A stretch of 59,963 nucleotides of DNA from an uncultured Bacteroides sp. (GTDB lineage Bacteria; Bacteroidota; Bacteroidia; Bacteroidales; Muribaculaceae): contig CAZSHV010000001.1 in assembly GCA_964606815.1 (NCBI GenBank), forward strand, positions 9,909-69,871. The letters run 5' to 3'. The position numbers and the translations under genes are program-made. Below, piece by piece: positions 8,321 through 23,667 of this stretch. The notes under the pieces are model-generated. The model was not told where the DNA came from, did no database searches, and worked only from the letters and a program-made list of their open reading frames with translations. Position 1 is the stretch's first letter. The number at the start of each line of letters is the position of its first letter.

Positions 8321-8523
8321 GGCTCTGTTAAATGTTTGACTACGCCGCTTATTCCTTCAGAGCCGGAATAAGCACCTGGCCCGATTGGCGTCAAAGCCTT
8401 TCGGGCCTCTCTGTTTATCGGGCTGCCGGAGAGCTTCGACAAATAACCAAATTTTTGCTGAAAAACTGACTCAAAGACTCGGGGTAGCGGCTTAATCTCC
8501 CCTGCTCTATCGTTTCCATCGCC

Positions 8524-8925
8524 ATGACTATGAAAACACCAACCAAACACTCAAAATCGCGCGGAAAGGCCGCAAAAACGCCTTCATCGGACTTATTCAC
8601 GGCTCTGTGCAAGTCGGAGCTGCGGGTGGACTGCGTCAAGGAATACCGCTTCCACCCCACTCGCAGATGGCGGTTCGACTACGCCATCCCAGCCCACAAG
8701 ATAGCCGTGGAGGTGGAGGGCGGCGTGTGGACGGGAGGCAGGCACACGTCGCCGCAGGGCTTCCTGAAGGACATGGAGAAGTACAACGCCGCTGCTCTCC
8801 TGGGCTGGCGCCTGTTCCGAGTGACGCCCGAAAGCCAGCTCGCCAACGATACGATTTCCATGCTCCGACAAGCTATTACGGGAGAATATGACAACCAGTA
8901 CGACATTTTCAAGGCAAAATCATGA
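8524..8925 (+). CDS. Phage PD-(D/E)xK endonuclease (Vsr/DUF559-like)
   Basis: 'EYRFHPTRRWRFDYAIPAHKIAVEVEGG...DMEKYNAAALLGW'. Confidence 0.8.
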   Translation: MTMKTPTKHSKSRGKAAKTPSSDLFTALCKSELRVDCVKEYRFHPTRRWRFDYAIPAHKIAVEVEGGVWTGGRHTSPQGFLKDMEKYNAAALLGWRLFRVTPESQLANDTISMLRQAITGEYDNQYDIFKAKS

Positions 8926-8939
8926 TTATATCATAAACA
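8923..8939. promoter_or_regulatory. Palindromic operator copy 1 (TGATTA-N5-TAAACA)
   Basis: 5 bp upstream of the TACCTTTG -7 box at 8945-8952; recurs at 10469, 21331 and 37878. Confidence 0.6.
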
Positions 8940-8956
8940 TTTACTACCTTTGCGCC

Positions 8957-9526
8957 ATGGCAAAAGGCAGCGGATCATTACGAAGCACTAAACCAAGCTC
9001 TAACAGCATAGCGCACAACAGGGGTGTTTTTGATTTTGAAACATCGATGCCCGATGTGCTAATGGGAGAGTCATATTTTTCTGAGTCCAGCGGAGGATTC
9101 GTGTTAGGGATGAAAGGCCACAATTATGATGACATCGAAAGAGAGGCATTTCGGCACATGGCTGACAATGGATTCTTAGTTGTCGCTACTCCCGAAGGCG
9201 GCATGGCGTACATATCCGGAAAGTCAGCAAAGGGCAAGATGCTCTATGCTGACGGACTACTGATGGGGAAAGTTTTCGAGCTTAAATCGCCTTCTCCTCA
9301 ATCGTCCAAAGAAGAAGCACTCGACAATTCGATAAAAAAAGCCTTGAACCACGCGCGTTCCAAGCAGGCAAACGTACCCGTCATCTACGACCGAAACGGC
9401 ATTTACCACAGGGACAACATCGAAAGAGGTCTCGCCGACTACGAAAGCAAGTCCGACGTGCGATTCAGCGCAATTATCGTAATCGACAGGTATGGTCGTG
9501 TATGGGAACACCAACATAACAAGTGA
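8957..9526 (+). CDS. Putative PD-(D/E)xK nuclease, CdiA C-terminal tRNase-like
   Basis: 'ADGLLMGKVFELKS...IKKALNHARSKQANVPVIYD' D-ExK pattern; AT-richer than its neighbours; likely start is ATG 8957 (MAKGSG). Confidence 0.6.
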   Translation: MAKGSGSLRSTKPSSNSIAHNRGVFDFETSMPDVLMGESYFSESSGGFVLGMKGHNYDDIEREAFRHMADNGFLVVATPEGGMAYISGKSAKGKMLYADGLLMGKVFELKSPSPQSSKEEALDNSIKKALNHARSKQANVPVIYDRNGIYHRDNIERGLADYESKSDVRFSAIIVIDRYGRVWEHQHNK

Positions 9527-9644
9527 AGCACGCCAGAATGCCCTGCGTGCTTCGTGTGTACTCGTTCACCGCGGCCTAGGACATTCTACGACCCCCCGGC
9601 TCATAAGTACGCCGCAAAATTATACAAAATATTCTAATCCACAA

Positions 9645-10430
9645 ATGTTGAGCGAAAAAAACGAGGATAATTATTACATTCCCGACAGCCTCTTCCCTTC
9701 GGACAACGAGCTGGAGGTGCCGAGCCTGCGCCTGGACGTGCAGCCGACTGCCGTTACTATCCCGTTCGTTTGCTTCGGCGAACAGAAGCGGACGTTCAAG
9801 ATGAACGGGACGGGGACGTTGCATTTCTACACGGATGATTACCGCTTCAACGCTATCTACGACCACCCTGAACGCATCCTCGCCCATAACCCGATGAACA
9901 TGGTTGAGCCTAACTGGAGCCTGTTTAACGACACGCCGCTGGCCTTCGGCCTGCAGGCAATCTACAAAAAGCGATGGCTCGCCCGCGCCATGCAGGAGCG
10001 CGGCATCGGTGTGTTCGTCGACCTCAACGTGGCCAACAAATTCATAGCGGCCAACCTCCTGGGGGTGCCCCGCGGATACGGAGCATTCTGCACCCGCGGT
10101 TACAGCGACCGCATCCCCGCTCTGGAGATGGAGTATATGGTTGCCATCCGCGTGGCGGCTGGCAATCCTGTAACCTTCGTCGTATACGGCGGGGGCGAGA
10201 ACGTAAAGGCGTGGTGCCGTATGAATGGCTGCGTGTACGTCACCCCGGTAATCACGATCAAGAACAAGCAGAAGGCAATTGCCCGGATGGAAAGAAACAT
10301 CGCACGTCTCAGCGCAGGATCGTTGTTCCCTCCGATTTCCGAACCTGCTCGTGAATACACGAAAGGATTGGGAGTAGTGAGTGATTTCGCGCTTCAAGTT
10401 CTTGATTTCAAACAAAAAAGCCCACAATAA
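9645..10430 (+). CDS. DUF4417-like protein
   Basis: 'HFYTDDYRF...PNWSLFNDTPLAFGLQAIYKKRWLARAMQERGIGV'; likely start is ATG 9645. Confidence 0.7.
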   Translation: MLSEKNEDNYYIPDSLFPSDNELEVPSLRLDVQPTAVTIPFVCFGEQKRTFKMNGTGTLHFYTDDYRFNAIYDHPERILAHNPMNMVEPNWSLFNDTPLAFGLQAIYKKRWLARAMQERGIGVFVDLNVANKFIAANLLGVPRGYGAFCTRGYSDRIPALEMEYMVAIRVAAGNPVTFVVYGGGENVKAWCRMNGCVYVTPVITIKNKQKAIARMERNIARLSAGSLFPPISEPAREYTKGLGVVSDFALQVLDFKQKSPQ

Positions 10431-10468
10431 TTCTTGCGCATATTAAAATAATTGCCGTACTTTGTATG

Positions 10469-10485
10469 TGATTGCATTATAAACA
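10469..10485. promoter_or_regulatory. Palindromic operator copy 2 upstream of the terminase genes
   Basis: TGATTG-CATTA-TAAACA, extended by ATGTG...CACAT. Confidence 0.55.
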
Positions 10486-10570
10486 CATATCAATCCCTTC
10501 GCACTAGTAGTGTGAATACTTCTTTTATGCCGGCTGCAAAGCATCGGAAACAACAAAACAGCATACCATC

Positions 10571-11092
10571 GTGAGTGAGGCACAACAAAATAAGCGCAAC
10601 AAGCTGCGCATCGCAAGGCTGGAGATAGTGGCCGAGCTGCTCAAACGCGGCTACTCGTACAGACGAATACGAGCGGAGGTGATAGGGCGGCTCGACCTGC
10701 CCGCCTACAGCCTGTGCACGGTAAAAACCGACGTGGACGCACTGATGGCGGAATGGCGCGAGGCGAGGCTGACCAACGTGGACGATCTGGTGCAGCTCGA
10801 GCTGGAACGCATCGATGACGCCATCGTGGAGCTGCGCGAGCAGTGGGAGCTATCAAAGGGCGACCGCAAGACTGCCGGAGACGACTGCGAGAACGGGGGC
10901 AAGCGCATAGCGGAGACGCGCTCGCTGGGCAACGTGGCCTATTGGGCGGAGATTCGCGCGCAGCTGGTGGAGAGGCGCAAGCTGCTGGGCCTGTACTCGC
11001 CCGACAGAGCCGTGATCAAGACGGAGGTGGGAATATCGAGGGCCGAAATCGAAGCGGAACTTTCCCGCCTGCAAAACCTGCAGAAAGACTAA
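10571..11092 (+). CDS. Putative terminase small subunit
   Basis: N-terminal HTH, 'ERRKLLGL' motif, directly upstream of TerL. Confidence 0.7.
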   Translation: MSEAQQNKRNKLRIARLEIVAELLKRGYSYRRIRAEVIGRLDLPAYSLCTVKTDVDALMAEWREARLTNVDDLVQLELERIDDAIVELREQWELSKGDRKTAGDDCENGGKRIAETRSLGNVAYWAEIRAQLVERRKLLGLYSPDRAVIKTEVGISRAEIEAELSRLQNLQKD

Positions 11093-11104
11093 ACGAAGGT
11101 CTGA

Positions 11105-12574
11105 ATGGGAACGCCATCGGTAGACACACTGCGCAAAGAGCTGGGCCTGCGCCGGCAGCTGCTTGAACTTGACGCTCGCCGTCAGTTCAGGCAATTCTTG
11201 CCGTATATGGACCCGACGTACTCGCGCCAGTGGTTTCACCGCCTCATCGCCGACCGCTGCCAGGCCCTGCTCGACGGAGACATCAAGAAGCTGATGGTGT
11301 TCGTGCCCCCGCAGCACGGCAAGAGCCAAATCGTGTCGCGCTCGTTCCCGGCCTTCGCCCTCGGCGTCAACCCCGACCTGAAGATTGTCGGCTGCTCCTA
11401 CGCCGCCACCTTGGCGCAGGGATTCAGCCGCTCCATACAGCGCATCATGGACTCGGAGGAGTACGCTCGCATCTTCCCTGAGACCTTCCTCAACGGCTCG
11501 CGCGGCCGCGGCTCGGCCAGAGGCGTGGCACGCACCGCCGACGAGTTCGAGGTGGTGGGCCACAGGGGCTTTTACCGCTCGGCGGGCGTATGCGGCGGTC
11601 TCACCGGCACGGCGGTGGACATCGGCATCATCGACGACCCTGTGAAGGACGCTCTGGAGGCGCAGTCTGCCACCTACCGAGAGCGTGTGTGGGAATGGTA
11701 CAACTCCGTGTTCATGACCCGACTGCACAACAACTCCCGCCAGCTCTTCATCATGACCCGCTGGCACGAGGACGACCTCGCCGGCCGCATCCTGGCCAAG
11801 GAGGGCGACTGGGAGGTGCTGTGCATCCCAGCCATCCGCGAGAGCCTTGACGACGGCAACGCCGAAGACCCCCGGCAGGTGGGCGAAGCCCTGTGGGAGC
11901 AGCGCCACTCATTGGCTCGCCTGCTTGAAGCGCAAAAACGCTCCGAGCGGGTGTTCGCGGCCCTGTACCAGCAGCATCCCACGCCCGACGGCGGCAACAT
12001 CGTGAAGGCGGCGTGGTTCCGGAGTTGCTCACGCTCGGAGTTCGAGCGGCTGCACAACGGCGAGCCCATCGTCTTCTTCATCGACACGGCCTACACCGAC
12101 AAAACCGCCAACGACCCCACTGGCATCATCGCCACCTGCAAAATCGGCGAAGACCTTTACATCGTCGACGCAGAGAAGGTGCACATGAAGTTCCCCGACC
12201 TCATCCGCCACATCCCCGCATACGTCCGGCGCAACGGGTACACGCCGAAGTCCACGATCCGCATAGAGCCGAAAGCCAACGGCATCTCAGTCATAGACCA
12301 GCTCAAGGAGAACACCGGCCTGAACGTCACCCGCACACCTTCGCCCTGCGACAGCAAGGAGACGCGCCTGAACGCTTCCTCTCCCTGCGTGGAGGGCGGC
12401 CGCGTGGTGCTGGTGGAAGGGGGCTGGAACGACGGCTTCGTCGACGAGGTGTGCGGCTTCCCCGCTGCCACCCACGACGAATACGTGGACGTGCTCTGCT
12501 ATGCCATCGACTATCACCTCACAAGCCCCTTCAAGCCCATAGACAAGAAGCGGCTCGCCAGACTGGTGCATTAA
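11105..12574 (+). CDS. terL: Terminase large subunit
   Basis: Walker A 'PPQHGKS', Walker B 'IIDDPVK', 'MTRWHEDDLAG', nuclease motifs 'DTA' and 'HDEYVD'. Confidence 0.95.
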   Translation: MGTPSVDTLRKELGLRRQLLELDARRQFRQFLPYMDPTYSRQWFHRLIADRCQALLDGDIKKLMVFVPPQHGKSQIVSRSFPAFALGVNPDLKIVGCSYAATLAQGFSRSIQRIMDSEEYARIFPETFLNGSRGRGSARGVARTADEFEVVGHRGFYRSAGVCGGLTGTAVDIGIIDDPVKDALEAQSATYRERVWEWYNSVFMTRLHNNSRQLFIMTRWHEDDLAGRILAKEGDWEVLCIPAIRESLDDGNAEDPRQVGEALWEQRHSLARLLEAQKRSERVFAALYQQHPTPDGGNIVKAAWFRSCSRSEFERLHNGEPIVFFIDTAYTDKTANDPTGIIATCKIGEDLYIVDAEKVHMKFPDLIRHIPAYVRRNGYTPKSTIRIEPKANGISVIDQLKENTGLNVTRTPSPCDSKETRLNASSPCVEGGRVVLVEGGWNDGFVDEVCGFPAATHDEYVDVLCYAIDYHLTSPFKPIDKKRLARLVH

Positions 12575-12610
12575 CCCCTCCAGCAATTCACCTCTCAAAT
12601 CCAACACATA

Positions 12611-14002
12611 ATGCCAATCGAAGACATCCTCAACTCCAACGCCTCGGCGGAGGCCAAGATAGCCGCCCTGAAGGAGAAGACCATAGTCGTGCCCTCATGG
12701 GGCGGCGCTAAGGGCTTAAGGCGCGAGTACGACCCCACGCTCCACCCGGTGATGGACAAGGCTCTGTACCCCGACGTCGCCAACGACGACGGCTCCTACG
12801 AGCCGCAGACGCGCATCACCTACGACCTCCAACGCCTCGCCACAAAGCGAATGACGGAGCTGGCCGTGGGAACGCCCGTCAAGCGCATCTACACCCCGCA
12901 GAACGAGCGTCAGCAAGCCGTGGCGCGATACATCGAGAACATCCTCGAGCGCAACCGCATCAACTCCCTCAACACCGAGCGATGCGCAATGCTCTTCGCG
13001 GGCTGCGAGGTGGTCACGCTGTGGTACGCCACGGAGACGCCCAACCCCCTCTACGGCTTTGACTCTCCGCTGAAGCTGCGCTGCCGCAACTTCTCCCCCA
13101 TGCTCGGCGACGAGCTTTATCCTCTCTTCGACGAGTACGGCGACATGATAGCCCTCTCCATCGGCTACCGCCGCCGCGTGGCAGGGAAGAGCGTGCAGTA
13201 CTTCGACGCTTACACCGCCAACCGGCACATCAAGTGGAGCAACGCCGCGGGCGGGGCCATGGCCGTGGTGGAGGACGAGACGACCACGCTGGGGAAGATT
13301 CCCGCCGTGTATGTGTGGCGACCCACCCCGGTGTGGGAGGACACCTCGAAGATCGTCTACGAGATGGAGTGGGCAATGAGCCGCAACGGCAACTACCTGC
13401 GCAAGAACTCCAAGCCCATCTTCGCCGTCTTCGCCGACGACATCGTGGACTACGGCGGCGAGGGCGACGACAAGGAGGCCAGAGCCATCATGCAATTCCC
13501 CAAAGGCACCTCGGCGCAGTACCTGACGTGGGCGCAGGCCGTGGACAACCTCAAGTTCTACATGGCCGAATTGCGCCAGACCTTCTTCACCCAGCTGCAG
13601 TTGCCCGACTGGTCTTACGAGAGCATGAAGTCGGCCCCCATGTCCGGCGAAAGCCGCAAGCAGCTGTTCATCGACGCCCACCTCAAGGTCAAGGACGAGA
13701 GCGGCCGCCTCATCGAGTGCTTCGACCGAGAGGTGAACGTGATAAAGGCATTCCTCAAAACCATGCTCCCCGCCTCCTTCCACAGCGACATCGACGCCCT
13801 GCCCGTGGAGCACGAGGTGTCGGCATTCGTGGTCTCCGATGAAAAGGACACCATCGTCAATCTAATGACGGCCAACGGCGGCAAGCCCGTCATCTCGCAG
13901 CGGGAGTCTATCGAGGTGCTCGGATGGAGCAAGGACGTGGACAAGACCATGGCCGAAATCCAAGAGCAGGACGTGCAAGACGCCTTCGGCTCATATCAGT
14001 AA
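12611..14002 (+). CDS. Portal protein (SPP1 gp6-like)
   Basis: 463 aa directly after TerL; 'LGKIPAVY', 'MSGES'. Confidence 0.85.
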   Translation: MPIEDILNSNASAEAKIAALKEKTIVVPSWGGAKGLRREYDPTLHPVMDKALYPDVANDDGSYEPQTRITYDLQRLATKRMTELAVGTPVKRIYTPQNERQQAVARYIENILERNRINSLNTERCAMLFAGCEVVTLWYATETPNPLYGFDSPLKLRCRNFSPMLGDELYPLFDEYGDMIALSIGYRRRVAGKSVQYFDAYTANRHIKWSNAAGGAMAVVEDETTTLGKIPAVYVWRPTPVWEDTSKIVYEMEWAMSRNGNYLRKNSKPIFAVFADDIVDYGGEGDDKEARAIMQFPKGTSAQYLTWAQAVDNLKFYMAELRQTFFTQLQLPDWSYESMKSAPMSGESRKQLFIDAHLKVKDESGRLIECFDREVNVIKAFLKTMLPASFHSDIDALPVEHEVSAFVVSDEKDTIVNLMTANGGKPVISQRESIEVLGWSKDVDKTMAEIQEQDVQDAFGSYQ

Positions 14003-14015
14003 AACACGCACAGCT

Positions 14016-14258
14016 ATGCCTAGAGAACGCACACAAGCCAGATTATCCCGGATGGCGCGGCCTGAACGCACCGCGCATGCTCAAACGCGCCGGTGCAGAG
14101 ATTGCATCCATTCCTACGACTGGCACGACCTCTCGCTCGAAGGCCGCCCCATCCTCTGCCGCTGCCTTGTGGACGCCAAGAGCAAGCAGGGGCGTTTCTG
14201 CAAGTTCCTCTCCGACCTCGCCTGCGAGCATTTCGCCTCCCGGTCACTGATCAGATAA
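14016..14258 (+). CDS. Small Cys-rich phage protein
   Basis: CRDCIH...LCRC...ACEHF putative Zn-binding motif between portal and MuF. Confidence 0.6.
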   Translation: MPRERTQARLSRMARPERTAHAQTRRCRDCIHSYDWHDLSLEGRPILCRCLVDAKSKQGRFCKFLSDLACEHFASRSLIR

Positions 14259-14274
14259 GACCACGCCTGCGACC

Positions 14275-16104
14275 ATGTCCAAGCCCAGCAAATACGACCG
14301 ACAGCACCTGCGCAACCTCGCCCGCTACCGCAAGCAGATCGAGGCCATATATGACGCCGCCCTGCATGAGGCAGCGGCCATAGGTGGCCTTGTGCCGTCG
14401 CTGGACGAGGGGAAGCTGTTCTCCTTTGACGACTACCCCATCACCCACGACAGGGTGCGCAGGCTGCTCGGCTCGCTGTGTAAGGAGCTTGAGATGTGCG
14501 TCGTCAACGGCGTGCGCTCGGAGTGGACGCTGGCCAACAACAAGAACGACGCTCTGTGCGACCGCGTCTTCGGCAGCCGCAAGTCGCGGCTCCCCTATGA
14601 GGCCGCTCGCCGATACTACGCCACCAACGCCCCCGCCCTCGAGGCCTTCCTCTCCCGCCAGGAGCAGGGGCTCGGGCTCTCCGACAGGGTGTGGCGGTAC
14701 ACCGACATGTTCCGCCGCGAGATAGAACTCGGCCTTGACCTCGGCATCCGCTCAGGGCACGACGCTCGGCAGATGGCAAGCAGCCTCAAACAGTACCTGC
14801 TGCACCACGACAAGCTCTTTCGCCGCGTCAGGGACGAGCACGGCCAGCTCACGCTCTCCCGAGCCGCCGCCGACTTCCACCCCGGAAGGGGCGTCTACCG
14901 CAGCAGCTATATGAACGCCCTGCGACTGACGGCCACGGAGACGAATATGGCCTACCGCACCGCCGACCACGACCGCTGGCAGCAGCTGGACTTCGTGGTT
15001 GGGCAGGACGTGCGCTGCTCCGACACCAACCACACCCAGCCCGACATCTGCGACACGCTGGCTGGCCGGTACCCCAAGGACTTCGTCTTCACGGGGTGGC
15101 ATCCCTTCTGCCGCTGCTACGTCGTGCCTGTGCTCAAGACCGAGGAAGAGGTTGACGCAGACATGCAACGCATCCTGCGTGGGGAAGACCCGCTGCCGCC
15201 CTCGCAGAGCGAGAACGCCGTGGAGGAGGTACCCGACAACTTCGCCGACTGGGTAAGGGAGAACGAAGAGCGCATCGCAGCCGCAACCGACCGCGGCACC
15301 CTCCCCTACTTCATCAGAGACAACGAGAAGTATATTGGTACGTCGCTGGAAGAACATCAGATACATTCATTTCTCAGCGGAGAGAATGTGCTTCTTACCC
15401 CCACCCACGAGCAAGATGTAAGTTTAATCCAGGATAAACTGTTCCAGCTTCAAAAAGACAATCCCTCGTGGTTCCGCAGAGGATACACTGGAATTGAAAC
15501 GACCTCTTCCCAAACAGGCGGATACATGTCAACGGACAGCAAAGGACGGATTACTATTAACTTCGCAAAGGACGTTAATGGCTTCAATGCCGGCGAGAGC
15601 GTACTCTCGGCATTCAAGAAGCTGAAGGAAGGCAGGGAACTAACAGCTCACGAGGAATATTCTATTGAGATGCTCTGGCACGAGATACTTCACAACAAGA
15701 CTCTCAACACAGTTGTACTGCCAGACATAGATACACATTTAGGCTTCCCTCGCTCTGTGGCTGAAACCATCAATCAACTTGTGGCAAGGCATACGTATCC
15801 CGATTTTCTGAAGAAATTAGGAGGAAAAGCTGTTCACCAAAGCTGGGTGCTTGAATATGGAATAAGTTATAGGGAATATGTTGCAAACATTCGTTCGATT
15901 ATAACAAAAGCAAGAATAACTGAAAGCGATTTTGTTACACGAGCACAAAAGATTCTAATGGAGGACTATTCCCAAATTGACGAACGAATCGAGAAACTGC
16001 TAATCAATCTCTGCTCAAACAAACGAAATAAGGAGAATATTGGTTTTATTTTTAGACGAATAGAACTTGAGGATTTTACCGAATATCTAAAAATCTTGAA
16101 ATAA
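14275..16104 (+). CDS. MuF-like minor head protein with C-terminal HExxH metallopeptidase toxin-like tip
   Basis: Downstream of portal; 'RLTATETNMAY...CDTLAGRYP...WHPFCRC' MuF signature; AT-richer C-terminal domain with 'LWHEILH...AETINQ'. Confidence 0.85.
   Translation: MSKPSKYDRQHLRNLARYRKQIEAIYDAALHEAAAIGGLVPSLDEGKLFSFDDYPITHDRVRRLLGSLCKELEMCVVNGVRSEWTLANNKNDALCDRVFGSRKSRLPYEAARRYYATNAPALEAFLSRQEQGLGLSDRVWRYTDMFRREIELGLDLGIRSGHDARQMASSLKQYLLHHDKLFRRVRDEHGQLTLSRAAADFHPGRGVYRSSYMNALRLTATETNMAYRTADHDRWQQLDFVVGQDVRCSDTNHTQPDICDTLAGRYPKDFVFTGWHPFCRCYVVPVLKTEEEVDADMQRILRGEDPLPPSQSENAVEEVPDNFADWVRENEERIAAATDRGTLPYFIRDNEKYIGTSLEEHQIHSFLSGENVLLTPTHEQDVSLIQDKLFQLQKDNPSWFRRGYTGIETTSSQTGGYMSTDSKGRITINFAKDVNGFNAGESVLSAFKKLKEGRELTAHEEYSIEMLWHEILHNKTLNTVVLPDIDTHLGFPRSVAETINQLVARHTYPDFLKKLGGKAVHQSWVLEYGISYREYVANIRSIITKARITESDFVTRAQKILMEDYSQIDERIEKLLINLCSNKRNKENIGFIFRRIELEDFTEYLKILK
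14963..15335 (+). repeat. MuF homology repeat, copy 1 (inside the full-length gene)
   Basis: Near-identical to 17913-18285 (373 bp), 16426-16732 (307 bp) and 19838-19977 (~140 bp). Confidence 0.95.
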
Positions 16105-16320
16105 ATGGGCAATCAAACTTCTATTCTTCACCTTTGCAAAATAGAAGTTCGCTTTCTCCTTGTCATCTCTCATGCTAAATAATAACCCTAGCATAAAATT
16201 TGCATCATCAGGATTAGCGAAAGGATCAATTCCATGCGCACGCTCCCATTCGAATTGCTCTCTCCCTCCGAAACGATTCAGCTCTTCATCGGTAGGGTTA
16301 TGGTCAAATATCGTTTCCAT
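16087..16320 (-). CDS. Putative immunity protein 1
   Basis: 77 aa, convergent, overlaps the toxin stop by 18 bp; own promoter at 16355-16385. Confidence 0.7.
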   Translation of the reverse strand: METIFDHNPTDEELNRFGGREQFEWERAHGIDPFANPDDANFMLGLLFSMRDDKEKANFYFAKVKNRSLIAHLFQDF

Positions 16321-16354
16321 TAGTAAATTTCTTAAACGTTATCGCTTTTCTATG

Positions 16355-16385
16355 CAAATATAGCAAAAACCGCCGAGGCCGCAAA
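16355..16385 (-). promoter_or_regulatory. Promoter of immunity gene 1
   Basis: Minus strand TTTG-N19-TATATTTG. Confidence 0.8.
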
Positions 16386-16421
16386 ACACTACCCGAATCT
16401 TTCGGAACTTTTCTAAATTAA

Positions 16422-17471
16422 GATTCCGACTTCGACCGCTGGCAGCAGCTGGACTTTGTGGTCGGGCAGGACGTGCGATGCTCCGACACCAACCACGCGC
16501 TGCCCGACATCTGCGACACGCTGGCTGGCCGGTACCCCAAGGACTTCGTCTTCACGGGGTGGCATCCCTTCTGCCGCTGCTACGTCGTGCCTGTGCTCAA
16601 GACAGAGGAGGAGGTTGACGCCGACATGCAGCGCATCCTCCGTGGGGAAGACCCGCTGCCGCCCTCGCAGAGCGAGAACGCCGTGGAGGACGTGCCGGAC
16701 AACTTCACCGACTGGGTGCGGGAGAACGAAGAAAGGATTGAACAAGCAAGCCGATTACCTTATTTCATTCGTGATAATATGCGTTTTGTCCAAGTAGACC
16801 TTGGGGTTGGAATAGGCGCACACAAGCGAGGAAAGGGGGCAATAATGAGGGGCCGAGATGATGATCAATATTTGCAGGAGCTACAAGCTGACAAAATTGC
16901 GAATGCACCTATTTCTCTAACCCCAAATCTGCTTGCAAATGCAGAGGAGGCATGTGAAAAGCTTAAAATTAAACGTATTGATATGACATTTGAAATGGCG
17001 GACGGAAGAACTCCAAACCTTAACAAGTTACGAGATAATTGCCAAACCGCCGTCGTAGTTTACGAAGCACGCCGCAGAGGGATTGACGTTATATCCTTAG
17101 GGCATAGCGAAGAAAAAGACTCGCCATCATACCGATTAGGAGAGGATGGCGCAATTGCCTTCAAGGGGAAAGATGGTTTGCCCCCAAAATTTATGTCATT
17201 AGGAGGGAACAAGGCGCGGATTAAATCAAAAATCGAATCGATAACTACAAACGAGGGCAGATACCATCTCGGCATGGAAAGTGGTGAAGATGGCCACATA
17301 ATTGTAGCGGAAAAAATAAAGGGTCACGATGTCGTCTTTTATGACCCTCAAAGTGGCAAAGCTTGGAGTCTCGGTCATATACTTGAAAGCTACGACAAAT
17401 TCTCCATTCTTAAAGTCAGCAATCTCGAACTTGACACGGACTTCCTTTTAGAAATTTGCGAGGTCCGGTAA
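16422..17471 (+). CDS. Orphan MuF C-terminal cassette 2 with papain-fold (Tox-PL-like) tip; probably untranslated until recombined
   Basis: Frame opens after TAA at 16419-21 with no ATG before the repeat; 'DNCQTAVVVYEARRRG...GHIIVAEK...FYDPQSG'. Confidence 0.8.
   Translation, partial: DSDFDRWQQLDFVVGQDVRCSDTNHALPDICDTLAGRYPKDFVFTGWHPFCRCYVVPVLKTEEEVDADMQRILRGEDPLPPSQSENAVEDVPDNFTDWVRENEERIEQASRLPYFIRDNMRFVQVDLGVGIGAHKRGKGAIMRGRDDDQYLQELQADKIANAPISLTPNLLANAEEACEKLKIKRIDMTFEMADGRTPNLNKLRDNCQTAVVVYEARRRGIDVISLGHSEEKDSPSYRLGEDGAIAFKGKDGLPPKFMSLGGNKARIKSKIESITTNEGRYHLGMESGEDGHIIVAEKIKGHDVVFYDPQSGKAWSLGHILESYDKFSILKVSNLELDTDFLLEICEVR
16426..16732 (+). repeat. MuF homology repeat, copy 2
   Basis: Direct copy of 14963-15269. 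Confidence 0.95.
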
Positions 17472-17723
17472 ATTCAACAACGTTCGCCTATAGTGCAGAA
17501 TTTCATCCAAATCATCGATAACTTGACAGTTGGCATCCGCATCTACCAAAACAAAGATAGGCAGTCCGCACTTGTGACGGGGAGGCACATCGAATCTGAA
17601 ACCAAAAAGAGCCTTTCCTTTTTCTTGCCCCATATATTTTCCAATTAGCGGTGTTGTAGATTTGATGGCCGCTTTAGCGACCCTCTCAAACTGTTTAAGC
17701 TGATCTTGTGTGAAGGTTGACAT
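17448..17723 (-). CDS. Putative immunity protein 2
   Basis: 91 aa, convergent, 24-bp overlap; motif 'YMGQEKG..LF...GLPIFVLV' shared with immunity 3. Confidence 0.75.
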   Translation of the reverse strand: MSTFTQDQLKQFERVAKAAIKSTTPLIGKYMGQEKGKALFGFRFDVPPRHKCGLPIFVLVDADANCQVIDDLDEILHYRRTLLNLPDLANF

Positions 17724-17841
17724 CTGAAAAGGAATTATAACGTCAGAACGGCGGTTTTAAGGCGCACCATGCAGTGAATAGCAGCCGAGCCGAGGGTTTT
17801 ATCGTTTCGGCTCAAGAGAGCGAACACGTGGCGTTTGTGCG

Positions 17842-17872
17842 CAAAGGTAGCAAAAACCGCCGAGGCAGCAAA
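17842..17872 (-). promoter_or_regulatory. Promoter of immunity gene 2
   Basis: Minus strand TTTG-N19-TACCTTTG. Confidence 0.8.
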
Positions 17873-17908
17873 ACACTACCCGAATCTTTCGGAACTTTTC
17901 TAAATTAA

Positions 17909-19402
17909 GATTCCGACCATGACCGCTGGCAGCAGCTGGACTTCGTGGTTGGGCAGGACGTGCGCTGCTCCGACACCAACCACACCCAGCCCGACATCTG
18001 CGACACGCTGGCTGGCCGGTACCCCAAGGACTTCGTCTTCACGGGGTGGCATCCCTTCTGCCGCTGCTACGTCGTGCCTGTGCTCAAGACCGAGGAAGAG
18101 GTTGACGCAGACATGCAACGCATCCTGCGTGGGGAAGACCCGCTGCCGCCCTCGCAGAGCGAGAACGCCGTGGAGGACGTGCCGGACAACTTCGCTGACT
18201 GGGTAAGGGAGAACGAGGAGCGCATCGCAGCCGCCACCGACCGCGGCACTCTGCCATACTTCATCAAAGACAACGAGAAGTATATGGACGTGCACAACTA
18301 CCATCGTGCGACAGAGACGCCCTTGAATGGCATTGCTGAATCTTTTCTGAAGAACTACGAGGAGATTGAAACGGCCCTGGGTATTAATCGCGGCGCACCA
18401 ATGAGCTTTGAAGAAGCTAACGAGATGAGAGCAAACCCGAATTACAAAACAGCCGTCGAGTTCCGGCAGAACTGCTCGGGGACGGTGTTCGCCAATGAAC
18501 TACGCCGCAGAGGCTTTGACGTGGAGGCTTTCGGCAACTCTAAAGAGGAATGGCGAATCACGACCATCCTTTCAAAGCGTCCTGAAATCGCATTCATGGA
18601 CGCTGACGGAAATCCGCCCGTGCCTATCAGAATTAAGACTTCTGGCAATTTAATGCGCGACCTCGGCAGCCAGATGACGGAGCCTGGACGCTACCATCTG
18701 AGGTTCAGGTTCAACAACGACAGTGGCACTGGCCACATCATCACGGCAGAACGCCTTGCTGACGGCACTCTGCGAATCTACGACCCGCAGAACGGAAAAA
18801 TAATCAGGAACTTCAGAGAGTACTCCACGGGCGTCACCAACTCAACCTTCGAGTACTACAGGGTGGACAACCTTCGCATCAATCCGGATGTGGCGCGCGG
18901 AGCGGTCAAACCATCGGGCGTCATGGGAGACGCTCCGAAGATGAAACTCCCGCAAATTGCACATCTCATAGATAGAGGATGGTACGGCGAGTTTGACCCT
19001 AATATAAGTGAGTTAAGGAGACAGACCCTAAACTCCAACTACTTCACAATGTCTGACCAGCCGTTAGCGTACGAAAATTTGCGCACGGGAAAATTGCTTT
19101 TAAAACGTAAACCGCTAAGACGAATAATAAATCATTGTATAAACGCAGATGAAATCGATGCCGTTAAGTTCATCTGGAATAACCCTGGGAGCTTGAGGGA
19201 AATTCGCATTAGCCCTTTGGGCGAAGGAAAAGATTTGACGTTAGAATCTGTGCAGACAAACTTGCGCAATAAGAGGGCACGCGGTGTGGTAGAATACATA
19301 ATCTATGAATTCGAGTATAATGGATTAGTTTGGACCTTGAAAACCGAACATCATAGATACGGGTTTGAACAATTCTACCACCTAAGGAAATCTAATGAAT
19401 AA
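17909..19402 (+). CDS. Orphan MuF C-terminal cassette 3 with papain-fold tip plus a second C-terminal (possibly RNase-like) domain
   Basis: In-frame TAA just upstream, no ATG; 'QNCSGTVFANELRRRG...GHIITAER...IYDPQNG', then ~130 extra aa ending 'EYIIYEFEYNG..WTLKTE....EQFYHL'. Confidence 0.8.
   Translation, partial: DSDHDRWQQLDFVVGQDVRCSDTNHTQPDICDTLAGRYPKDFVFTGWHPFCRCYVVPVLKTEEEVDADMQRILRGEDPLPPSQSENAVEDVPDNFADWVRENEERIAAATDRGTLPYFIKDNEKYMDVHNYHRATETPLNGIAESFLKNYEEIETALGINRGAPMSFEEANEMRANPNYKTAVEFRQNCSGTVFANELRRRGFDVEAFGNSKEEWRITTILSKRPEIAFMDADGNPPVPIRIKTSGNLMRDLGSQMTEPGRYHLRFRFNNDSGTGHIITAERLADGTLRIYDPQNGKIIRNFREYSTGVTNSTFEYYRVDNLRINPDVARGAVKPSGVMGDAPKMKLPQIAHLIDRGWYGEFDPNISELRRQTLNSNYFTMSDQPLAYENLRTGKLLLKRKPLRRIINHCINADEIDAVKFIWNNPGSLREIRISPLGEGKDLTLESVQTNLRNKRARGVVEYIIYEFEYNGLVWTLKTEHHRYGFEQFYHLRKSNE
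17913..18285 (+). repeat. MuF homology repeat, copy 3
   Basis: Direct copy of 14963-15335. Confidence 0.95.
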
Positions 19403-19450
19403 AAAAAGGCTCCCGACACAGCGCTCAAATACGCTATATAGCCGAAAGCC
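19402..19450 (-). terminator. Hairpin with U-tract on the minus strand (terminator and/or small RNA)
   Basis: GGCTTTCGG...ATAGCG-TATTTGAG-CGCTGT...TCGGGAGCC followed by TTTTTT. Confidence 0.7.
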
Positions 19451-19510
19451 GTTGCAAATATGAAAATAATTACTCACATATGCAAATGAGAAAAGTGAAT
19501 TTAATTTATT

Positions 19511-19741
19511 TTAATAAAACTCACGCATTATCACACGCCATTCGTCATCCGTCTTGGTCCATCGCAGTCCGTTGGGGCCTGCAATGATGAATTGCGGGAA
19601 GCCGATAAAGCGGGGAGTGTCGTCCGCAAAGACTGGTTCGAATATACCGCAGCCGTTCATTTCGCCGAGGTACCGTACATCGTCGTATATCGACGATTTC
19701 GCCATTTCCGCCGCTCGATTTTGCGTCTTGCTATCATTCAT
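19511..19741 (-). CDS. Putative immunity protein 3
   Basis: 76 aa, convergent; 'YLGEMNG..IF...GFPQFII' resembles immunity 2. Confidence 0.75.
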   Translation of the reverse strand: MNDSKTQNRAAEMAKSSIYDDVRYLGEMNGCGIFEPVFADDTPRFIGFPQFIIAGPNGLRWTKTDDEWRVIMREFY

Positions 19742-19789
19742 GGGAATTTAATTTTTGTCACTATGCTACTGGCTTTTAAGCCTTTTGCG

Positions 19790-19820
19790 CAAAGGTAGCG
19801 AAATCCGCCGAGGTCGCAAA
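19790..19820 (-). promoter_or_regulatory. Promoter of immunity gene 3
   Basis: Minus strand TTTG-N19-TACCTTTG. Confidence 0.8.
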
Positions 19821-19837
19821 ACTTTTCTTGCTCGATT

Positions 19838-19977
19838 TACGTCGTGCCTGTGCTCAAGACAGAGGAGGAGGTTGACGCCGACATGCAGCGCATCCTCCGT
19901 GGGGAAGACCCGCTGCCGCCCTCGCAGAGCGAGAACGCCGTGGAGGACGTGCCCGATAACTTCGCCGACTGGGTGCG
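19838..19977 (+). repeat. MuF homology repeat, copy 4 (short)
   Basis: Direct copy of ~15118-15257. Confidence 0.92.
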
Positions 19978-20782
19978 AGCAAAATCAGCAAAAATAGAAA
20001 ACGCCAGTAGTTTACCGTTTTTTGTCCGTGACAATAAGGATAAAGTTAATCAAATCATAGATGAAAGCAGATACGACAAATTCATTGGCGAGGGTATAAT
20101 CTCTCACCTGAGGGGCTATCCCATAACAGATGAATTCCTGAGGTTAAAATCTCATGCCGCTGTCGCAGAGCTGCTTCAGCATAATCTCTCATCTTCGGGT
20201 ACTCCTGTGAAGGTGGAAGTCGATGCTCGTCTGATACCATTACGAGTTGCAAAAGCTTATGCTTCTACCTTGTCAGAGTTGAACAGAGAATATCTACTAT
20301 TACAAGCACCCCTTGGGGTGGTCAAGCTTGGATACAAACCTGAAGACCCTTTAGAATTTGGTTGTACTTATTTCAACCATGATACGAGAGAACCCAAAAT
20401 TGTAAGCTTAGTTCAATCGCGTGAAACCCGAAACTCAAAACATGCAATTCGTAGTTCACGATGTGATAAACGGAGAAATGGAATAGCAACGGCCACACAT
20501 GAGTTTGCTCACCTGCTATATTCTGTAAGGACGGCAGATGTCTCTATTTCCCCTTTTGAAACTGCTTTACTGGAAATTTGGAAACAATATGAAAATGATA
20601 TTGCTAAATCCATTGCAACAAACAACATTGATGAAATGGCTACATGGTATCTCGGAAATTATGCAAATAATACTGTTGATGAGTTTATGGCAGAGGCATT
20701 CCAAGAATACAAAAACTGCTCAAACCCAACAAAATACGCTACGGCTGTTGGTCTATTAGTTGACCGATTTTTTAAACGGTAA
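19838..20782 (+). CDS. Orphan MuF C-terminal cassette 4 with zincin metallopeptidase tip
   Basis: No ATG upstream of the repeat; 'ATHEFAHLL...YLGNYANNTVDEFMAEAF'. Confidence 0.8.
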   Translation, partial: YVVPVLKTEEEVDADMQRILRGEDPLPPSQSENAVEDVPDNFADWVRAKSAKIENASSLPFFVRDNKDKVNQIIDESRYDKFIGEGIISHLRGYPITDEFLRLKSHAAVAELLQHNLSSSGTPVKVEVDARLIPLRVAKAYASTLSELNREYLLLQAPLGVVKLGYKPEDPLEFGCTYFNHDTREPKIVSLVQSRETRNSKHAIRSSRCDKRRNGIATATHEFAHLLYSVRTADVSISPFETALLEIWKQYENDIAKSIATNNIDEMATWYLGNYANNTVDEFMAEAFQEYKNCSNPTKYATAVGLLVDRFFKR

Positions 20783-21025
20783 TCATATACGTCCTGTCCT
20801 TTTAAGAAATTCCTCGTACTCTCTAAAAGGGGTCATTACGTCTTCCGCTAAAGCCTTAAAAACGAAATCACCAGTTTGCCCCTCTACGACCGTCAAATGA
20901 GTTGTACACCTAAAGCCATATGGGATCCCGTCTGGGAAAGCTCTGCAACCACAGGTTAATCCGTCATAATTGTTCGTACAATAGTGCTCGCATTTGAAAC
21001 AAGGAGCGTTGTCTCCGTAATACAT
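20783..21025 (-). CDS. Putative immunity protein 4 (Cys-rich)
   Basis: 80 aa, abuts the toxin stop; 'CFKCEH...CRAFPDGIP...H...Q.GDFVF'. Confidence 0.75.
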   Translation of the reverse strand: MYYGDNAPCFKCEHYCTNNYDGLTCGCRAFPDGIPYGFRCTTHLTVVEGQTGDFVFKALAEDVMTPFREYEEFLKRTGRI

Positions 21026-21198
21026 ATCTCAACAAAAAAGGTTGGAAGTTGCAAATTGATTTGCCTCACATAATGGAAGAATATTCTTTTAGAATAATAT
21101 CCTAAAAAAGGCACGGGTAATCGCTCAAAAGCGTTCAGAGCAGGAATCGAGGTATTTATCGTTTCGGCTCAAGAGAGCGAACACGTGGCCTTTGCAGG

Positions 21199-21229
21199 CA
21201 AAGGTAGCAAAAACCGCTGAGGCGGCAAA
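21199..21229 (-). promoter_or_regulatory. Promoter of immunity gene 4
   Basis: Minus strand TTTG-N19-TACCTTTG. Confidence 0.8.
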
Positions 21230-21330
21230 ACGCCCCGCGGAGATTTATGCGAAGAATGCGCACGCATCTGATTTTTTCGGTAGTCACCGACGCTGCGAAC
21301 TACGGCGGTGTGATTTCGAAAAGAATTTTA

Positions 21331-21369
21331 TGATTATATTGTAAACACTAAATATTTTAGCTATCTTTG
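21331..21369 (+). promoter_or_regulatory. Operator copy 3 plus -7 box of the head operon promoter
   Basis: TGATTA-TATTG-TAAACA (21331-47) and TATCTTTG (21362-69). Confidence 0.6.
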
Positions 21370-21401
21370 CGCATGACTAACGAAAACACAATCTTACACA
21401 C

Positions 21402-22100
21402 ATGAAAGCGAAAACTTTAGCAGCCCTGAAAACCAAATTCACGGGGGTTCAGGACGCGATACTTGGCCGGGTCGCTGACAAGCTGATTGCCAACGGCAAG
21501 GTCGCCAAGGAGGCGGACGTCGCAACGGCTGTGGCCGGGGTGGAGTTCCAACAGGTTCTGGAGATGTACGGCGACAGCCGCGCGGGTGAGGCCTCCATCA
21601 CCGCCGTGCGCAACTACGAGACTGCGCACAAGCTCAAGGACGGCAAGCCCCTGCAGGAGGGCGTTGCCAAGCACACCGCCGATCCTGCCGCCAACGCCGC
21701 GGGCGGGGGCGAAGAACCCGAGAAAGCCCCCGCGTGGGCAGAGAAGCTCATTGCCGCCAACAAGGCTCTGACCGACCGACTGAACGCGCTGGAGAAGGGG
21801 CGCACCGCCGAGAGCCGCCGCTCGCGTCTGGAAGCCGTGATAGGCACTCTGCCGGAGCACCTGCGCAAGGCTTACGCCCGCACGCCGCTGGAGGCGCAGA
21901 CCGACGACGAGTTCACCGCCCTGCTGGCCGACGTCACCAACGAGGTGGCCGAAATCGAGAAGCAGAGCCGAGCCGCCGGGGCCGTAACCGGACGTCCGCT
22001 GGGAGCAGGCAAGACGGCGGGCGCGGCGCAGAGCGCGGGCAACACCGCCGAGGCCTCCGACGCGGAGGTGGAAGCCGTGGTGGCCAAGCTCAACATCTAA
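21402..22100 (+). CDS. Putative capsid scaffolding protein
   Basis: Ala-rich coiled coil upstream of the decoration and capsid genes. Confidence 0.65.
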   Translation: MKAKTLAALKTKFTGVQDAILGRVADKLIANGKVAKEADVATAVAGVEFQQVLEMYGDSRAGEASITAVRNYETAHKLKDGKPLQEGVAKHTADPAANAAGGGEEPEKAPAWAEKLIAANKALTDRLNALEKGRTAESRRSRLEAVIGTLPEHLRKAYARTPLEAQTDDEFTALLADVTNEVAEIEKQSRAAGAVTGRPLGAGKTAGAAQSAGNTAEASDAEVEAVVAKLNI

Positions 22101-22572: not shown

Positions 22573-23667
22573 ATGATTGCATCACTTTTCGCTGAATACG
22601 TTGACAAATACTTCTCCCGCGTCGTGGGCAAGATTGTGGAGAAGTTCAACGGCAAGCAGAAGGAGGAAACCCTCCTGCACAAGACCATGCTCACGGAGGA
22701 GTACTCGCCCGACCTCAAGTGGGGGTCGACCGAGCTCAACCACTCGGTGGTGTCCGCCGACGTGGTGGCCCTCGACTCGCCCCTGCCCCTGAAGAAGCGC
22801 GACCGCCTGAGCAACGCCACGGGCGACCTGCCCAAACTGGGCGTGAAGTACCGCAAGGGCGAGAAGCTCATCACCGACATCAACGTGGCCAAGGCCCGCA
22901 ACGCCGACGAGGCCACGATCGTGGCCAAAATCTTCGACGACGCCTCCAAATGCATCCGTTCGATGGACGTGCTCAAGGAGGTGCTCTTCCGCCGAGGCCT
23001 GTCCACCGGCCAGCTGCTGGTCACCGAGGACGACACCGACGGCACCGGCGTGCGCGTATCCTACGGCTACCGCGAAGACCACATCTTCAAGTGCGTGGGC
23101 GCGCCTTGGCTCGACACCGACGACGACCCCACCCCGCAGGACGACCTGCAGCAGCTCTTCGACAAAGCGCAGGAAGACGGCAACACCATCGCCCACGTCT
23201 ATCTGACCAAGCGTTATTTCGACGCCTTCCGCCGCTCCAAGCAGGGAAAGCTCCTGGCCGCCAACTACAACCGACAGGTGGTCACAGACGAGGCTCTGCT
23301 CCCCGTCCCAGGCCGCTCGGCGTTCCTCGACATCATCGCCGACGAGTACGGAGCCACGTTCCACATCGTGGAGGGCACGTTCAAGGTGCAGAACCCCGAC
23401 GGCACGGAGAAGAACGCCGAGGCATGGAAAGAGGCCAACGTGGTGGGCGTGCCGGACACCGTCGTGGGTCGCCTCGTCTACGGCACGCTGGCCGAGGAGA
23501 CCAACCCCGTGGCCGCTGTATCCTACCAGAAGGCGGGCTCGCACGTGCTAATCGCCAAATACTCCAAGACCGACCCCTTGGAGGAGTTCACCACCGCGCA
23601 GGCCATCTGCCTGCCCGTGATCGACAACGCCGACGGCATCTACGTGCTGCAGGCTGACATGGCTTAA
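22573..23667 (+). CDS. Major capsid protein
   Basis: 364 aa; 'ADVVALDSPLPLKKR...GDLPKLG'; C-terminal 'ICLPVIDN'; position in the operon. Confidence 0.8.
   Translation: MIASLFAEYVDKYFSRVVGKIVEKFNGKQKEETLLHKTMLTEEYSPDLKWGSTELNHSVVSADVVALDSPLPLKKRDRLSNATGDLPKLGVKYRKGEKLITDINVAKARNADEATIVAKIFDDASKCIRSMDVLKEVLFRRGLSTGQLLVTEDDTDGTGVRVSYGYREDHIFKCVGAPWLDTDDDPTPQDDLQQLFDKAQEDGNTIAHVYLTKRYFDAFRRSKQGKLLAANYNRQVVTDEALLPVPGRSAFLDIIADEYGATFHIVEGTFKVQNPDGTEKNAEAWKEANVVGVPDTVVGRLVYGTLAEETNPVAAVSYQKAGSHVLIAKYSKTDPLEEFTTAQAICLPVIDNADGIYVLQADMA

What the first reader, a model, noticed from the sequence alone, without database searches (positions are those of the whole stretch)
16087..21229. Putative immunity genes are antisense to the late operon, each with its own copy of a consensus promoter
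Seen: all four partner genes are on the minus strand, tail-to-tail with the toxin tip (overlaps of 18, 24 and 0 bp; one 108-bp gap). Each has TTTG-N19-TAnnTTTG at identical spacing within a shared module (16355, 17842, 19790, 21199). In canonical polymorphic toxin loci, immunity genes are co-oriented with the toxin. Inference: the lysogen expresses the whole immunity library while the head operon is silent, protecting against toxins of related phages; convergent transcription may also damp leaky toxin expression.
Basis: partly seen in the sequence, partly recalled or inferred. Interest (0 to 1): 0.82.

Follow-up and report, generated by a model that had tools for sequence, protein, structure and literature searches.

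The report
Phage toxin cassettes with RNA antidote
This prophage carries a head protein ending in a likely toxin plus three spare toxin ends, each facing a backwards-running partner gene with its own promoter-like site; the one ribonuclease-like end faces a predicted small hairpin RNA as well, a pairing repeated in about a hundred related loci, which suggests an undescribed RNA-based immunity.

Summary
Observation confirmed: four minus-strand genes lie tail-to-tail with four MuF tips, each behind TTTG-N19-TAnnTTTG, the Bacteroidetes housekeeping promoter consensus. The locus is a Bxa-family MuF gene with three orphan cassettes. Antisense partners are not special to it: 85 of 113 related loci have one, including a Bxa-type locus. 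Partner family follows tip family, and tip 1 is predicted to bind its partner (0.78, best control 0.00). Three orphans are rare.

The new part is the '108-bp gap'. It holds a fifth, near-consensus promoter and a 50-base hairpin behind a BECR/LPD3-like nuclease domain. The same promoter-plus-short-RNA arrangement follows 41 of 44 homologues of that domain, and 16 of 16 LPD3 and 16 of 17 CdiA_C genes chosen by Pfam alone, against 38 of 987 ordinary genes. Peptidase, amidase and ADP-ribosyltransferase tips have protein partners; dual tips mostly have both. No Rfam family or paper was found. Best reading: nuclease tips are neutralised by a small RNA, like a type III antitoxin. Expression, toxicity and protection are all unmeasured.

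The parts
14275..16104 (+). Full-length muf gene (609 aa): Bxa-type MuF N-part (residues 1-355) plus tip 1, a zinc metallopeptidase-like domain (WHExxH...E)
   Evidence: PHROG 16625 'Bxa' N-part E 1.5e-96; between portal 12611-14002 and the gene before the capsid genes; motif invariant in 12 relatives; model matches M1/thermolysin-type peptidases, Z 8.6, rmsd 8.6, 206 aligned
16087..16320 (-). Partner p1 (77 aa), likely immunity to tip 1
   Evidence: Family of 9, all beside tip-1-family tips; predicted complex 0.78, best control 0.00
16355..16385 (-). Promoter-like site 1, TTTG-N19-TAnnTTTG
16426..17471 (+). Orphan cassette 2: copy of muf 14963-15269 (93.8% identical), then a papain-fold Gln-amidase tip; a stop codon lies just before the repeat
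   Evidence: PF15644 E 2.3e-9; N-C and H columns kept
17448..17723 (-). Partner p2 (91 aa), amidase-partner family
   Evidence: family-0 profile E 4.9e-7; 46% homologue on contig C33
17842..17872 (-). Promoter-like site 2
17913..18967 (+). Orphan cassette 3, first part: copy of muf 14963-15335 (97.1%), then a Gln-amidase domain
   Evidence: PF15644 E 1.3e-6
18968..19402 (+). Orphan cassette 3, last domain: BECR/LPD3-like predicted ribonuclease
   Evidence: His kept in 43 of 44 homologues; 1 of 9 aligned members hits LPD3, E 1.4e-8; model pLDDT 92; top structural rows are BrnT (Z 5.7, rmsd 2.9, 74 aligned), RelE and CDI tRNases
19401..19452 (-). Predicted small RNA: a long hairpin with loop TATTTGAG and a run of 7 U ending in the tip-3 stop codon; candidate RNA antitoxin; it would also terminate the p3 transcript
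   Evidence: -24.1 kcal/mol, z -5.8 against base shuffles; counterpart behind homologues
19455..19486 (-). Fifth, near-consensus promoter-like site (TTTG-N20-CAtaTTTG; one mismatch in the -7 box)
   Evidence: 41 of 44 homologues have a full TAnnTTTG[CT] here
19511..19741 (-). Partner p3 (76 aa), amidase-partner family; likely immunity to the amidase domain of tip 3
   Evidence: family 0, 21 members; follows the amidase domain, not the nuclease
19790..19820 (-). Promoter-like site 3
19838..20782 (+). Orphan cassette 4: shorter copy of muf 15118-15254 (94.2%), then an HExxH...E metallopeptidase-like tip
   Evidence: no Pfam match
20783..21025 (-). Partner p4 (80 aa, Cys-rich CxxCxH...CxAFPxGIP)
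   Evidence: same motif beside a tip-4 relative (L012, co-oriented there); 82.5% homologue on contig C13
21199..21229 (-). Promoter-like site 4, back-to-back with a plus-strand site at 21339-21369 before the next head gene

Best explanation
This is a prophage head-protein (MuF) toxin gene with three spare toxin ends, in which every toxin-like domain has its own backwards-running, separately promoted partner that likely neutralises it: a small protein for the peptidase and amidase domains, and a predicted small hairpin RNA for the ribonuclease-like domain. Shown: the layout, the repeats, the motif, the family-wide orientation, and the strict sorting of partner type by domain. Inferred: the host's housekeeping sigma factor transcribes all five units while the late operon is silent, so that lysogens and newly infected cells resist their own tip and matching tips brought in by other phage heads; the RNA binds the nuclease as a stoichiometric decoy or inhibitor, as type III antitoxins do; because each partner carries its own promoter on the far side of the tip, tip plus partner plus promoter moves as one unit, and recombination in the shared muf stretch can put a spare tip on the head protein.
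For: Orientation: 85 of 113 dereplicated long-tip loci have a tail-to-tail minus ORF, 8 a co-oriented one; other plus-strand genes of the same loci 74 and 296 of 401. TAnnTTTGC before 47 of these 85 partners, 4 on the other strand, 2.2 expected. Partner family follows tip family. Tip1-p1 model 0.78, best of 3 controls 0.00; the mark was reached by 116 of 157 solved complexes and 2 of 215 mismatched pairs; runs agree in at least 0% of contacts, partner pLDDT at least 80. Phage Versailles: full-length Bxa-family gene with ADP-ribosylglycohydrolase and small genes on the opposite strand; BAH and Bsi protect against Bxa (PMC11699363). RNA: back-pointing TAnnTTTG[CT] behind 41 of 44 tip-3-domain homologues (4 on the other strand, 3.2 expected), 16 of 17 CdiA_C and 16 of 16 terminal LPD3 genes chosen by Pfam (1.5 and 1.7 expected), against 38 of 987 long ORFs of this genome. 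Among the 113 MuF loci, 20 of 22 nuclease-ended tips have promoter-plus-RNA, 4 of 91 others; on the MuF tree the nuclease state changes 15 times, and in 7 independent pairs the RNA goes the same way in 5.5 and the other way in none (sign test median p 0.031). Amidase-plus-nuclease tips: 6 of 8 carry the amidase partner protein behind the RNA, 0 of 57 nuclease-only tips. Stems: where both bases changed, 29 of 40 pairs are kept (41% by chance). Three LPD3 loci hold the RNA unit twice (L439, L440, L455).
Against: No transcript, toxicity or protection was measured. The window's own RNA promoter has a mismatch, and its hairpin can simply be the p3 terminator. The RNAs share little sequence: MAFFT plus RNAalifold found no consensus structure in 13 of them; only 22 of 44 fold better than shuffles by 2 SD; where one base changed, 44 of 76 pairs broke. 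Terminators also covary. The nuclease assignment rests on Z under 6 and one Pfam hit; Foldseek found nothing. One of the three complex runs scored 0.15. Four relatives carry a co-oriented partner (L012, L054, L133, L137). No natural tip swap of this phage was seen. PMC7366714 warns that antisense promoters arise by chance in AT-rich genomes.
Confidence: 0.58

Rival explanations
1. The small RNA is a cis-antisense regulator (type I-like): it, or transcription from its promoter, lowers the muf mRNA or its read-through, and does not touch the protein.
For: It lies exactly opposite the 3' end of the toxin message; convergent type I antitoxins exist (txpA/RatA, recalled); B. thetaiotaomicron has type I-like pairs (PMC7366714); low sequence conservation fits.
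Against: It ends at the stop codon and folds into a closed hairpin; it would serve any tip, yet occurs only with nuclease domains; it could not protect against protein carried in a phage head; tandem copies suit a titrated binder.
Confidence: 0.2
2. The hairpin is only a terminator, and the promoter a leftover or an insulator; nuclease tips have no dedicated immunity because they are inactive or aim at foreign RNA (anti-defence).
For: Stem plus U-run is terminator-shaped; in the window it ends the p3 transcript; Iyer 2017 proposes PBECR domains may cut host-defence RNAs.
Against: The promoter is kept in 41 of 44, 16 of 16 and 16 of 17 cases, mostly with no gene between it and the hairpin; the spacing is tight (44-77 nt in 41 of 44); a [CT]GA motif is enriched in the loop, 22 of 44 against 9.8.
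Confidence: 0.1
3. The orphan cassettes are kept only for their immunity units (a poly-immunity array) or act as stand-alone toxin-antitoxin or abortive-infection modules; they are never swapped onto the head protein.
For: Truncated muf-tip-partner units lie away from head genes on contig C33 and in other genomes of the family; C13 keeps a p4 homologue with only a scrap of tip; Alexei 2024 suggests spare immunity genes at MuF loci.
Against: All three orphan tips have open frames, in frame with the muf repeat, with catalytic motifs intact; cassette 3 is nearly identical to the resident muf over about 250 nt. This rival is compatible with the RNA reading.
Confidence: 0.3
4. The peptidase-type tips are processing or anti-defence enzymes rather than toxins, and their partners are inhibitors or chaperones for virion assembly.
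For: Iyer 2017 reads MPTase domains as processing enzymes, and Zhang 2012 notes some Tox-PL1 are releasing peptidases; the predicted p1 interface is mainly the C-terminal helices, touching E142 but not the HExxH residues.
Against: Tips are terminal and interchangeable with ADP-ribosyltransferase, zeta-toxin and nuclease tips; a host-type promoter opposite the late operon is not what an assembly factor needs.
Confidence: 0.12
5. The tandem array is a mis-assembly of strain variants.
For: The genome is a 183-contig draft and such arrays are rare.
Against: The repeats differ by 3-6%; the same junction types occur on C33; a separate metagenome contig (L319) matches 18057-20409 at 99.3% across the cassette 3-4 junction. 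The other two junctions have no outside support.
Confidence: 0.03

Closest known systems
Bxa-type MuF toxins of Bacteroidales prophages with BAH and Bsi immunity (PMC11699363; parts 1, 2, 4 of 7 and passages read, figures not seen)
   Same: Same MuF N-part and position after the portal; amidase tips with a small partner already noted and modelled there; a Bxa-type phage locus has its immunity-type genes antisense.
   Different: The text has no 'orientation', 'opposite', 'strand' or 'cassette', though its gene maps may show the arrows; no orphan tip cassettes, promoters, or RNA partners are described; tips here are peptidase, amidase and nuclease types.
MuF polymorphic toxins (PMC5576092, part 1 of 6 and passages; PMC3482391, passages)
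   Same: muf behind the portal, variable C-terminal domain, small gene downstream.
   Different: Centred on Firmicutes ('Bacteroidetes' 0 times); immunity is always taken to be protein.
Type III toxin-antitoxin systems ToxIN, CptIN, TenpIN, AbiQ (PMC5086642, passages); AbiF with its small RNA (PMC12373285, search listing only)
   Same: An endoribonuclease paired with a non-coding RNA, sometimes repeated.
   Different: There: one operon, RNA repeats upstream, a terminator between, pseudoknots. Here: RNA downstream, convergent, own promoter, mostly one hairpin; toxin is a BECR/LPD3-like or CdiA_C domain fused to a virion protein.
Orphan toxin-immunity cassettes of CDI and Rhs loci (recalled; general statement in the PMC3482391 abstract)
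   Same: Truncated copies of the gene's 3' part, each with a new tip and partner.
   Different: Partners are antisense with their own promoter; in a phage head module.
rAID-1 orphan immunity arrays of Bacteroidales (10.1101/471110, passages)
   Same: Arrays of spare immunity genes with repeated intergenic DNA.
   Different: No recombinase gene in the array; tips are kept; the repeat is muf coding sequence plus a promoter.

Membership tests
MuF polymorphic toxin (Bxa-type) | MuF domain gene directly downstream of the portal in a temperate phage | tested here: met
   one 80-aa ORF lies between; integrase-like and repressor-like ORFs upstream on the contig (labels recalled)
MuF polymorphic toxin (Bxa-type) | Variable C-terminal domain across relatives | tested here: met
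   23 tip clusters among 110 relatives plus 4 window tips; Pfam on 70 of the 110
MuF polymorphic toxin (Bxa-type) | Adjacent small partner specific to the tip | tested here: met
MuF polymorphic toxin (Bxa-type) | Tip is toxic and partner neutralises it | not testable with these tools
   motifs intact; activity unmeasured
Type III toxin-antitoxin | Toxin is an endoribonuclease | tested here: inconclusive
   BECR-like model, Z 5.7 at best; conserved His
Type III toxin-antitoxin | One operon: RNA upstream, terminator, then toxin | tested here: not met
   RNA is downstream and convergent
Type III toxin-antitoxin | Tandem RNA repeats | tested here: not met
   single unit in the window; two units seen by eye in 3 of 16 LPD3 loci
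Type III toxin-antitoxin | Pseudoknotted RNA | tested here: inconclusive
   crude scan: possible in 2 of 44 tip-3-type and 11 of 30 CdiA_C-type RNAs, no control
Type III toxin-antitoxin | RNA binds and inhibits the protein | not testable with these tools
   the complex tool takes proteins only
Type I toxin-antitoxin | Antisense RNA overlapping the message of a small (under about 60 aa) toxin | tested here: not met
   toxin is a domain of a long protein; RNA ends at the stop codon
rAID-1 | XerD-type recombinase gene at the array | tested here: not met
   no such ORF between muf and the next head gene
Known Rfam RNA family | Match to an Rfam 15 model | tested here: not met
   0 hits in window 7000-22000 and in 15 loci; 1 sub-threshold hit (E 0.27) in 20 loci

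The most novel reading that the evidence does not exclude
Bacteroidetes phages use small RNAs as immunity for a whole class of virion-borne nuclease toxins. LPD3/BECR-like and CdiA_C (PF18451) domains, two unrelated folds, each carry a convergent, host-promoted 40-160-base RNA that binds and blocks the nuclease, while every other toxin domain has a protein. The cassettes are self-expressing units that phages stack and hosts capture: a polymorphic toxin system with RNA antitoxins.
Probability: 0.5. Interest if true: 0.9.

Novelty: new variant of a known kind. Interest (0 to 1): 0.8.

Why it matters
Immunity in polymorphic toxin systems is described as protein. A widespread RNA immunity would join MuF toxins to type III toxin-antitoxin systems, give the uncharacterised LPD3 domain a function and a partner, and add at least two small-RNA classes absent from Rfam. 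The convergent host-type promoter also bears on an open question, what MuF toxins are for: immunity wired apart from the late operon fits protection of lysogens against incoming virions. Each unit is small and can be tested in a laboratory strain.

Tried and rejected
Sequencing runs: none was listed, so no reads were laid. Sigma-70 promoter scan uninformative. RNA alignment by MAFFT: 36% column identity in 34 RNAs; no RNAalifold structure in a subset of 13; the model built from it had no pairs and was not used. Idea that CdiA_C RNAs mimic a tRNA NCCA end: 19 of 30 against 16.3 expected, rejected. Idea that the [CT]GA loop mimics a Ser anticodon: not tested beyond the loop count. Idea that the p2/p4 leader is a CdiA_C-type RNA: no profile hit, fold z -0.4 and -1.5, rejected. 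Foldseek on the nuclease model: no match. Protein atlas gave no answer. The promoter module was not found in viral contigs; single-protein scans for the tip-3 domain and the 8888-9526 gene found nothing there; neither nuclease type was found in the cultured-phage collection. Looking for such an RNA in the B. thetaiotaomicron small-RNA table failed: part 1 of 7 gives coordinates only and that genome was not at hand. The first tree run timed out. Earlier-findings look-ups gave nothing on this system. Literature searches without a description of antisense MuF immunity or of RNA partners of LPD3/CdiA_C; subscription papers (among them the first Bxa paper), figures and bioRxiv supplements were not visible.
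Full report
Setting. The stretch lies in the head module of a prophage: terminase 11105-12574, portal 12611-14002, a 609-aa gene 14275-16104, then after 21402 the genes up to the major capsid 22573-23667. The 609-aa gene matches the N-part of PHROG 16625, named Bxa (E 1.5e-96). Titles of relatives and the promoter type point to Bacteroidales. Three truncated copies of its middle follow, 94-97% identical to it, each in frame with a new tip and lacking the first 229 or about 280 codons. Tips 2 and 3 hold a papain-fold Gln-amidase domain; tips 1 and 4 have HExxH plus a downstream Glu, and the tip 1 model resembles M1 and thermolysin-type peptidases (Z 8.6, rmsd 8.6).

Observation. The motif is the consensus of the primary sigma factor of Bacteroidetes (PMC7366714, passage) and occurs 75 times in this genome. 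The four copies are homologous.

Is antisense immunity special here? No. I gathered 196 loci with this MuF; 164 had a complete gene and 900 bases downstream, 119 remained at 80% identity, 113 with a tip of 100 residues or more. Of these 85 have an ATG ORF tail-to-tail on the minus strand and 8 a co-oriented ORF; for 401 other plus-strand genes the figures are 74 and 296, so some of the 85 are chance ORFs. TAnnTTTGC precedes 47 of the 85 (4 on the other strand, 2.2 expected); the strict two-box form only 13. Partner families sort with tip families: p1 with eight relatives beside tip-1-type peptidases, p2 and p3 in the family beside amidases. Phage Versailles carries a full-length Bxa-family gene with an ADP-ribosylglycohydrolase and small genes on the opposite strand, and a Porphyromonas phage the same; the hydrolase type and a small protein were shown to protect against Bxa (PMC11699363). 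Four relatives have a co-oriented partner. A model of tip 1 with p1 scored 0.78, best of 3 controls 0.00; the mark was reached by 116 of 157 solved and 2 of 215 mismatched pairs; runs agree in at least 0% of contacts, one run scored 0.15, partner pLDDT at least 80. So the partners are very likely immunity, and their orientation is a family trait that the texts I could read do not mention.

The array. Only 3 of the 196 loci (not dereplicated, 0-11 kb downstream) show one orphan cassette, none two; drafts may break at such repeats, and four of twenty partial hits start at a contig edge. The array looks real: L319 matches 18057-20409 at 99.3%, and contig C33 of this genome holds a second, non-identical set with the same promoter module and junctions. 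Of 20 regions chosen for having only the 3' part of muf, 18 had no match to this phage's portal, terminase, scaffold or capsid genes within the 5-14 kb fetched; in most of the 10 listed gene by gene the neighbours look like housekeeping genes (labels recalled). Tip, partner and promoter evidently move as a unit.

The gap. Loci without a protein partner had a back-pointing promoter 40-180 bases after the stop, followed by hairpins and a U-run. The window's 108-bp gap has the same: TTTG-N20-CAtaTTTG at 19455-19486 and a hairpin at 19408-19450 (z -5.8). The domain before it has an invariant His, one homologue in LPD3, and a model whose best structural matches are BECR ribonucleases (Z 5.7 at best; Foldseek none). 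Among 165 loci with this domain, 44 were non-redundant; 41 have TAnnTTTG[CT] pointing back (4 on the other strand, 3.2 expected), and the predicted RNA is 44-77 bases in 41. To avoid my own selection I took Pfam hits from 301 genomes of the order: 16 of 17 CdiA_C genes (one is this window's 8888-9526, two are near-twins) and 16 of 16 terminal LPD3 genes (5 of 21 left out as internal or short-flanked; one also in the set of 44) have it. Ordinary long ORFs of this genome: 38 of 987. Within the 113 MuF loci, 20 of 22 nuclease-ended tips and 4 of 91 others are of this type (the profiles were seeded on Pfam hits from 70 of 110 tips and run on all 113). On a tree of 107 MuF N-parts the nuclease state changes 15 times; 7 independent pairs give 5.5 with, 0 against. 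Tips with both amidase and nuclease carry the RNA next to the gene and, in 6 of 8, the amidase partner behind it; 0 of 57 nuclease-only tips do (6 of the 65 had short upstream context). Cassette 3 is such a dual tip, which explains the gap.

How good is the RNA? In 27 disjoint pairs of similar RNAs, with the structure predicted from one member, 29 of 40 doubly changed pairs are kept (41% by chance, transition bias ignored) and 32 of 76 singly changed (22%). [CT]GA lies in the loop in 22 of 44 (9.8 expected), but only 22 of 44 fold 2 SD better than shuffles, and no consensus structure came from a plain alignment. Three LPD3 loci carry the unit twice. Rfam has no match. In the window the hairpin would also end the p3 transcript.

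Mechanism. Shown: one separately promoted, convergent partner per domain, protein or RNA by domain type. Inferred: host polymerase makes the partners in the lysogen; proteins bind peptidase and amidase tips; the RNA binds the nuclease. I prefer binding over antisense action because the RNA sorts with the domain rather than the message, stops at the stop codon, is sometimes duplicated, and takes the very place that protein immunity takes elsewhere. It fails the layout tests of type III systems (PMC5086642), so it may work like one without being a member. Tip swapping through the repeats is inferred from open frames and near-identity; no swap was seen.

Verdict. The finding is real; its immunity reading is probably right but family-wide. 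The surprise is the predicted RNA partner of nuclease tips, not found in ten literature searches (listed under Tried and rejected), with figures, subscription papers and bioRxiv supplements unseen. Interest 0.8; new variant of a known kind; nothing yet measured.

Noticed in passing
window 8888-9645: A stand-alone CdiA_C-like gene (8888-9526, Pfam E 4e-5, below cut-off) is followed by a strict back-pointing promoter (9615-9645) and a 90-base two-hairpin RNA (about 9520-9612) that lie inside the long ORF 9492-10430 (DUF4417), whose true start is probably later.
   Followed up: partly
G000:C33:15700-19750: Second array of truncated muf cassettes with homologues of p2, p3 and tip 2, a CdiA_C-like tip broken by a stop but keeping its promoter and RNA, beside restriction-modification-like genes and a transposase (labels recalled), at the contig end.
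   Followed up: partly
G000:C13:5098-6061: Orphan p4 homologue (82.5%) with 30 bases of tip-4 end and a second small gene behind a promoter motif, next to a tRNA-like stretch in a housekeeping region.
   Followed up: partly
L399, L403, L405, L407, L408, L410-L414: Single truncated muf-tip-partner units of 1.5-3 kb between chromosomal genes, mostly with the tip pointing away from a minus-strand host gene; truncation points vary (residues 215-310), no shared junction seen.
   Followed up: partly
window 17791-17835 and 21148-21192; C33 16183-16232: The long leaders of p2 and p4 share a conserved 45-base stretch; function unknown, fold not better than shuffles.
   Followed up: partly
L011:11452-11528, L220:10707-10806, L442: Some LPD3 RNAs have a 7-base loop (TTGCAGT, CTGTAGT or TTGTAGT) shaped like an anticodon loop; L065's RNA has a T-arm-like hairpin. 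Possible tRNA decoys, untested.
   Followed up: no
L243-L398: Most homologues of the tip-3 nuclease domain did not match the Bxa-type MuF profile in the stretch held (6 of 44 did) and sit before other morphogenesis-like genes, yet keep the RNA: it travels with the domain.
   Followed up: partly
window 21339-21369: Plus-strand host-type promoter motif before the 232-aa head gene, back-to-back with site 4; seen at the same place in several relatives.
   Followed up: no
L046:9585-15071; L047:8703-15041: In two cultured phages a long block of small minus-strand genes follows the immunity-type genes inside the head module.
   Followed up: no
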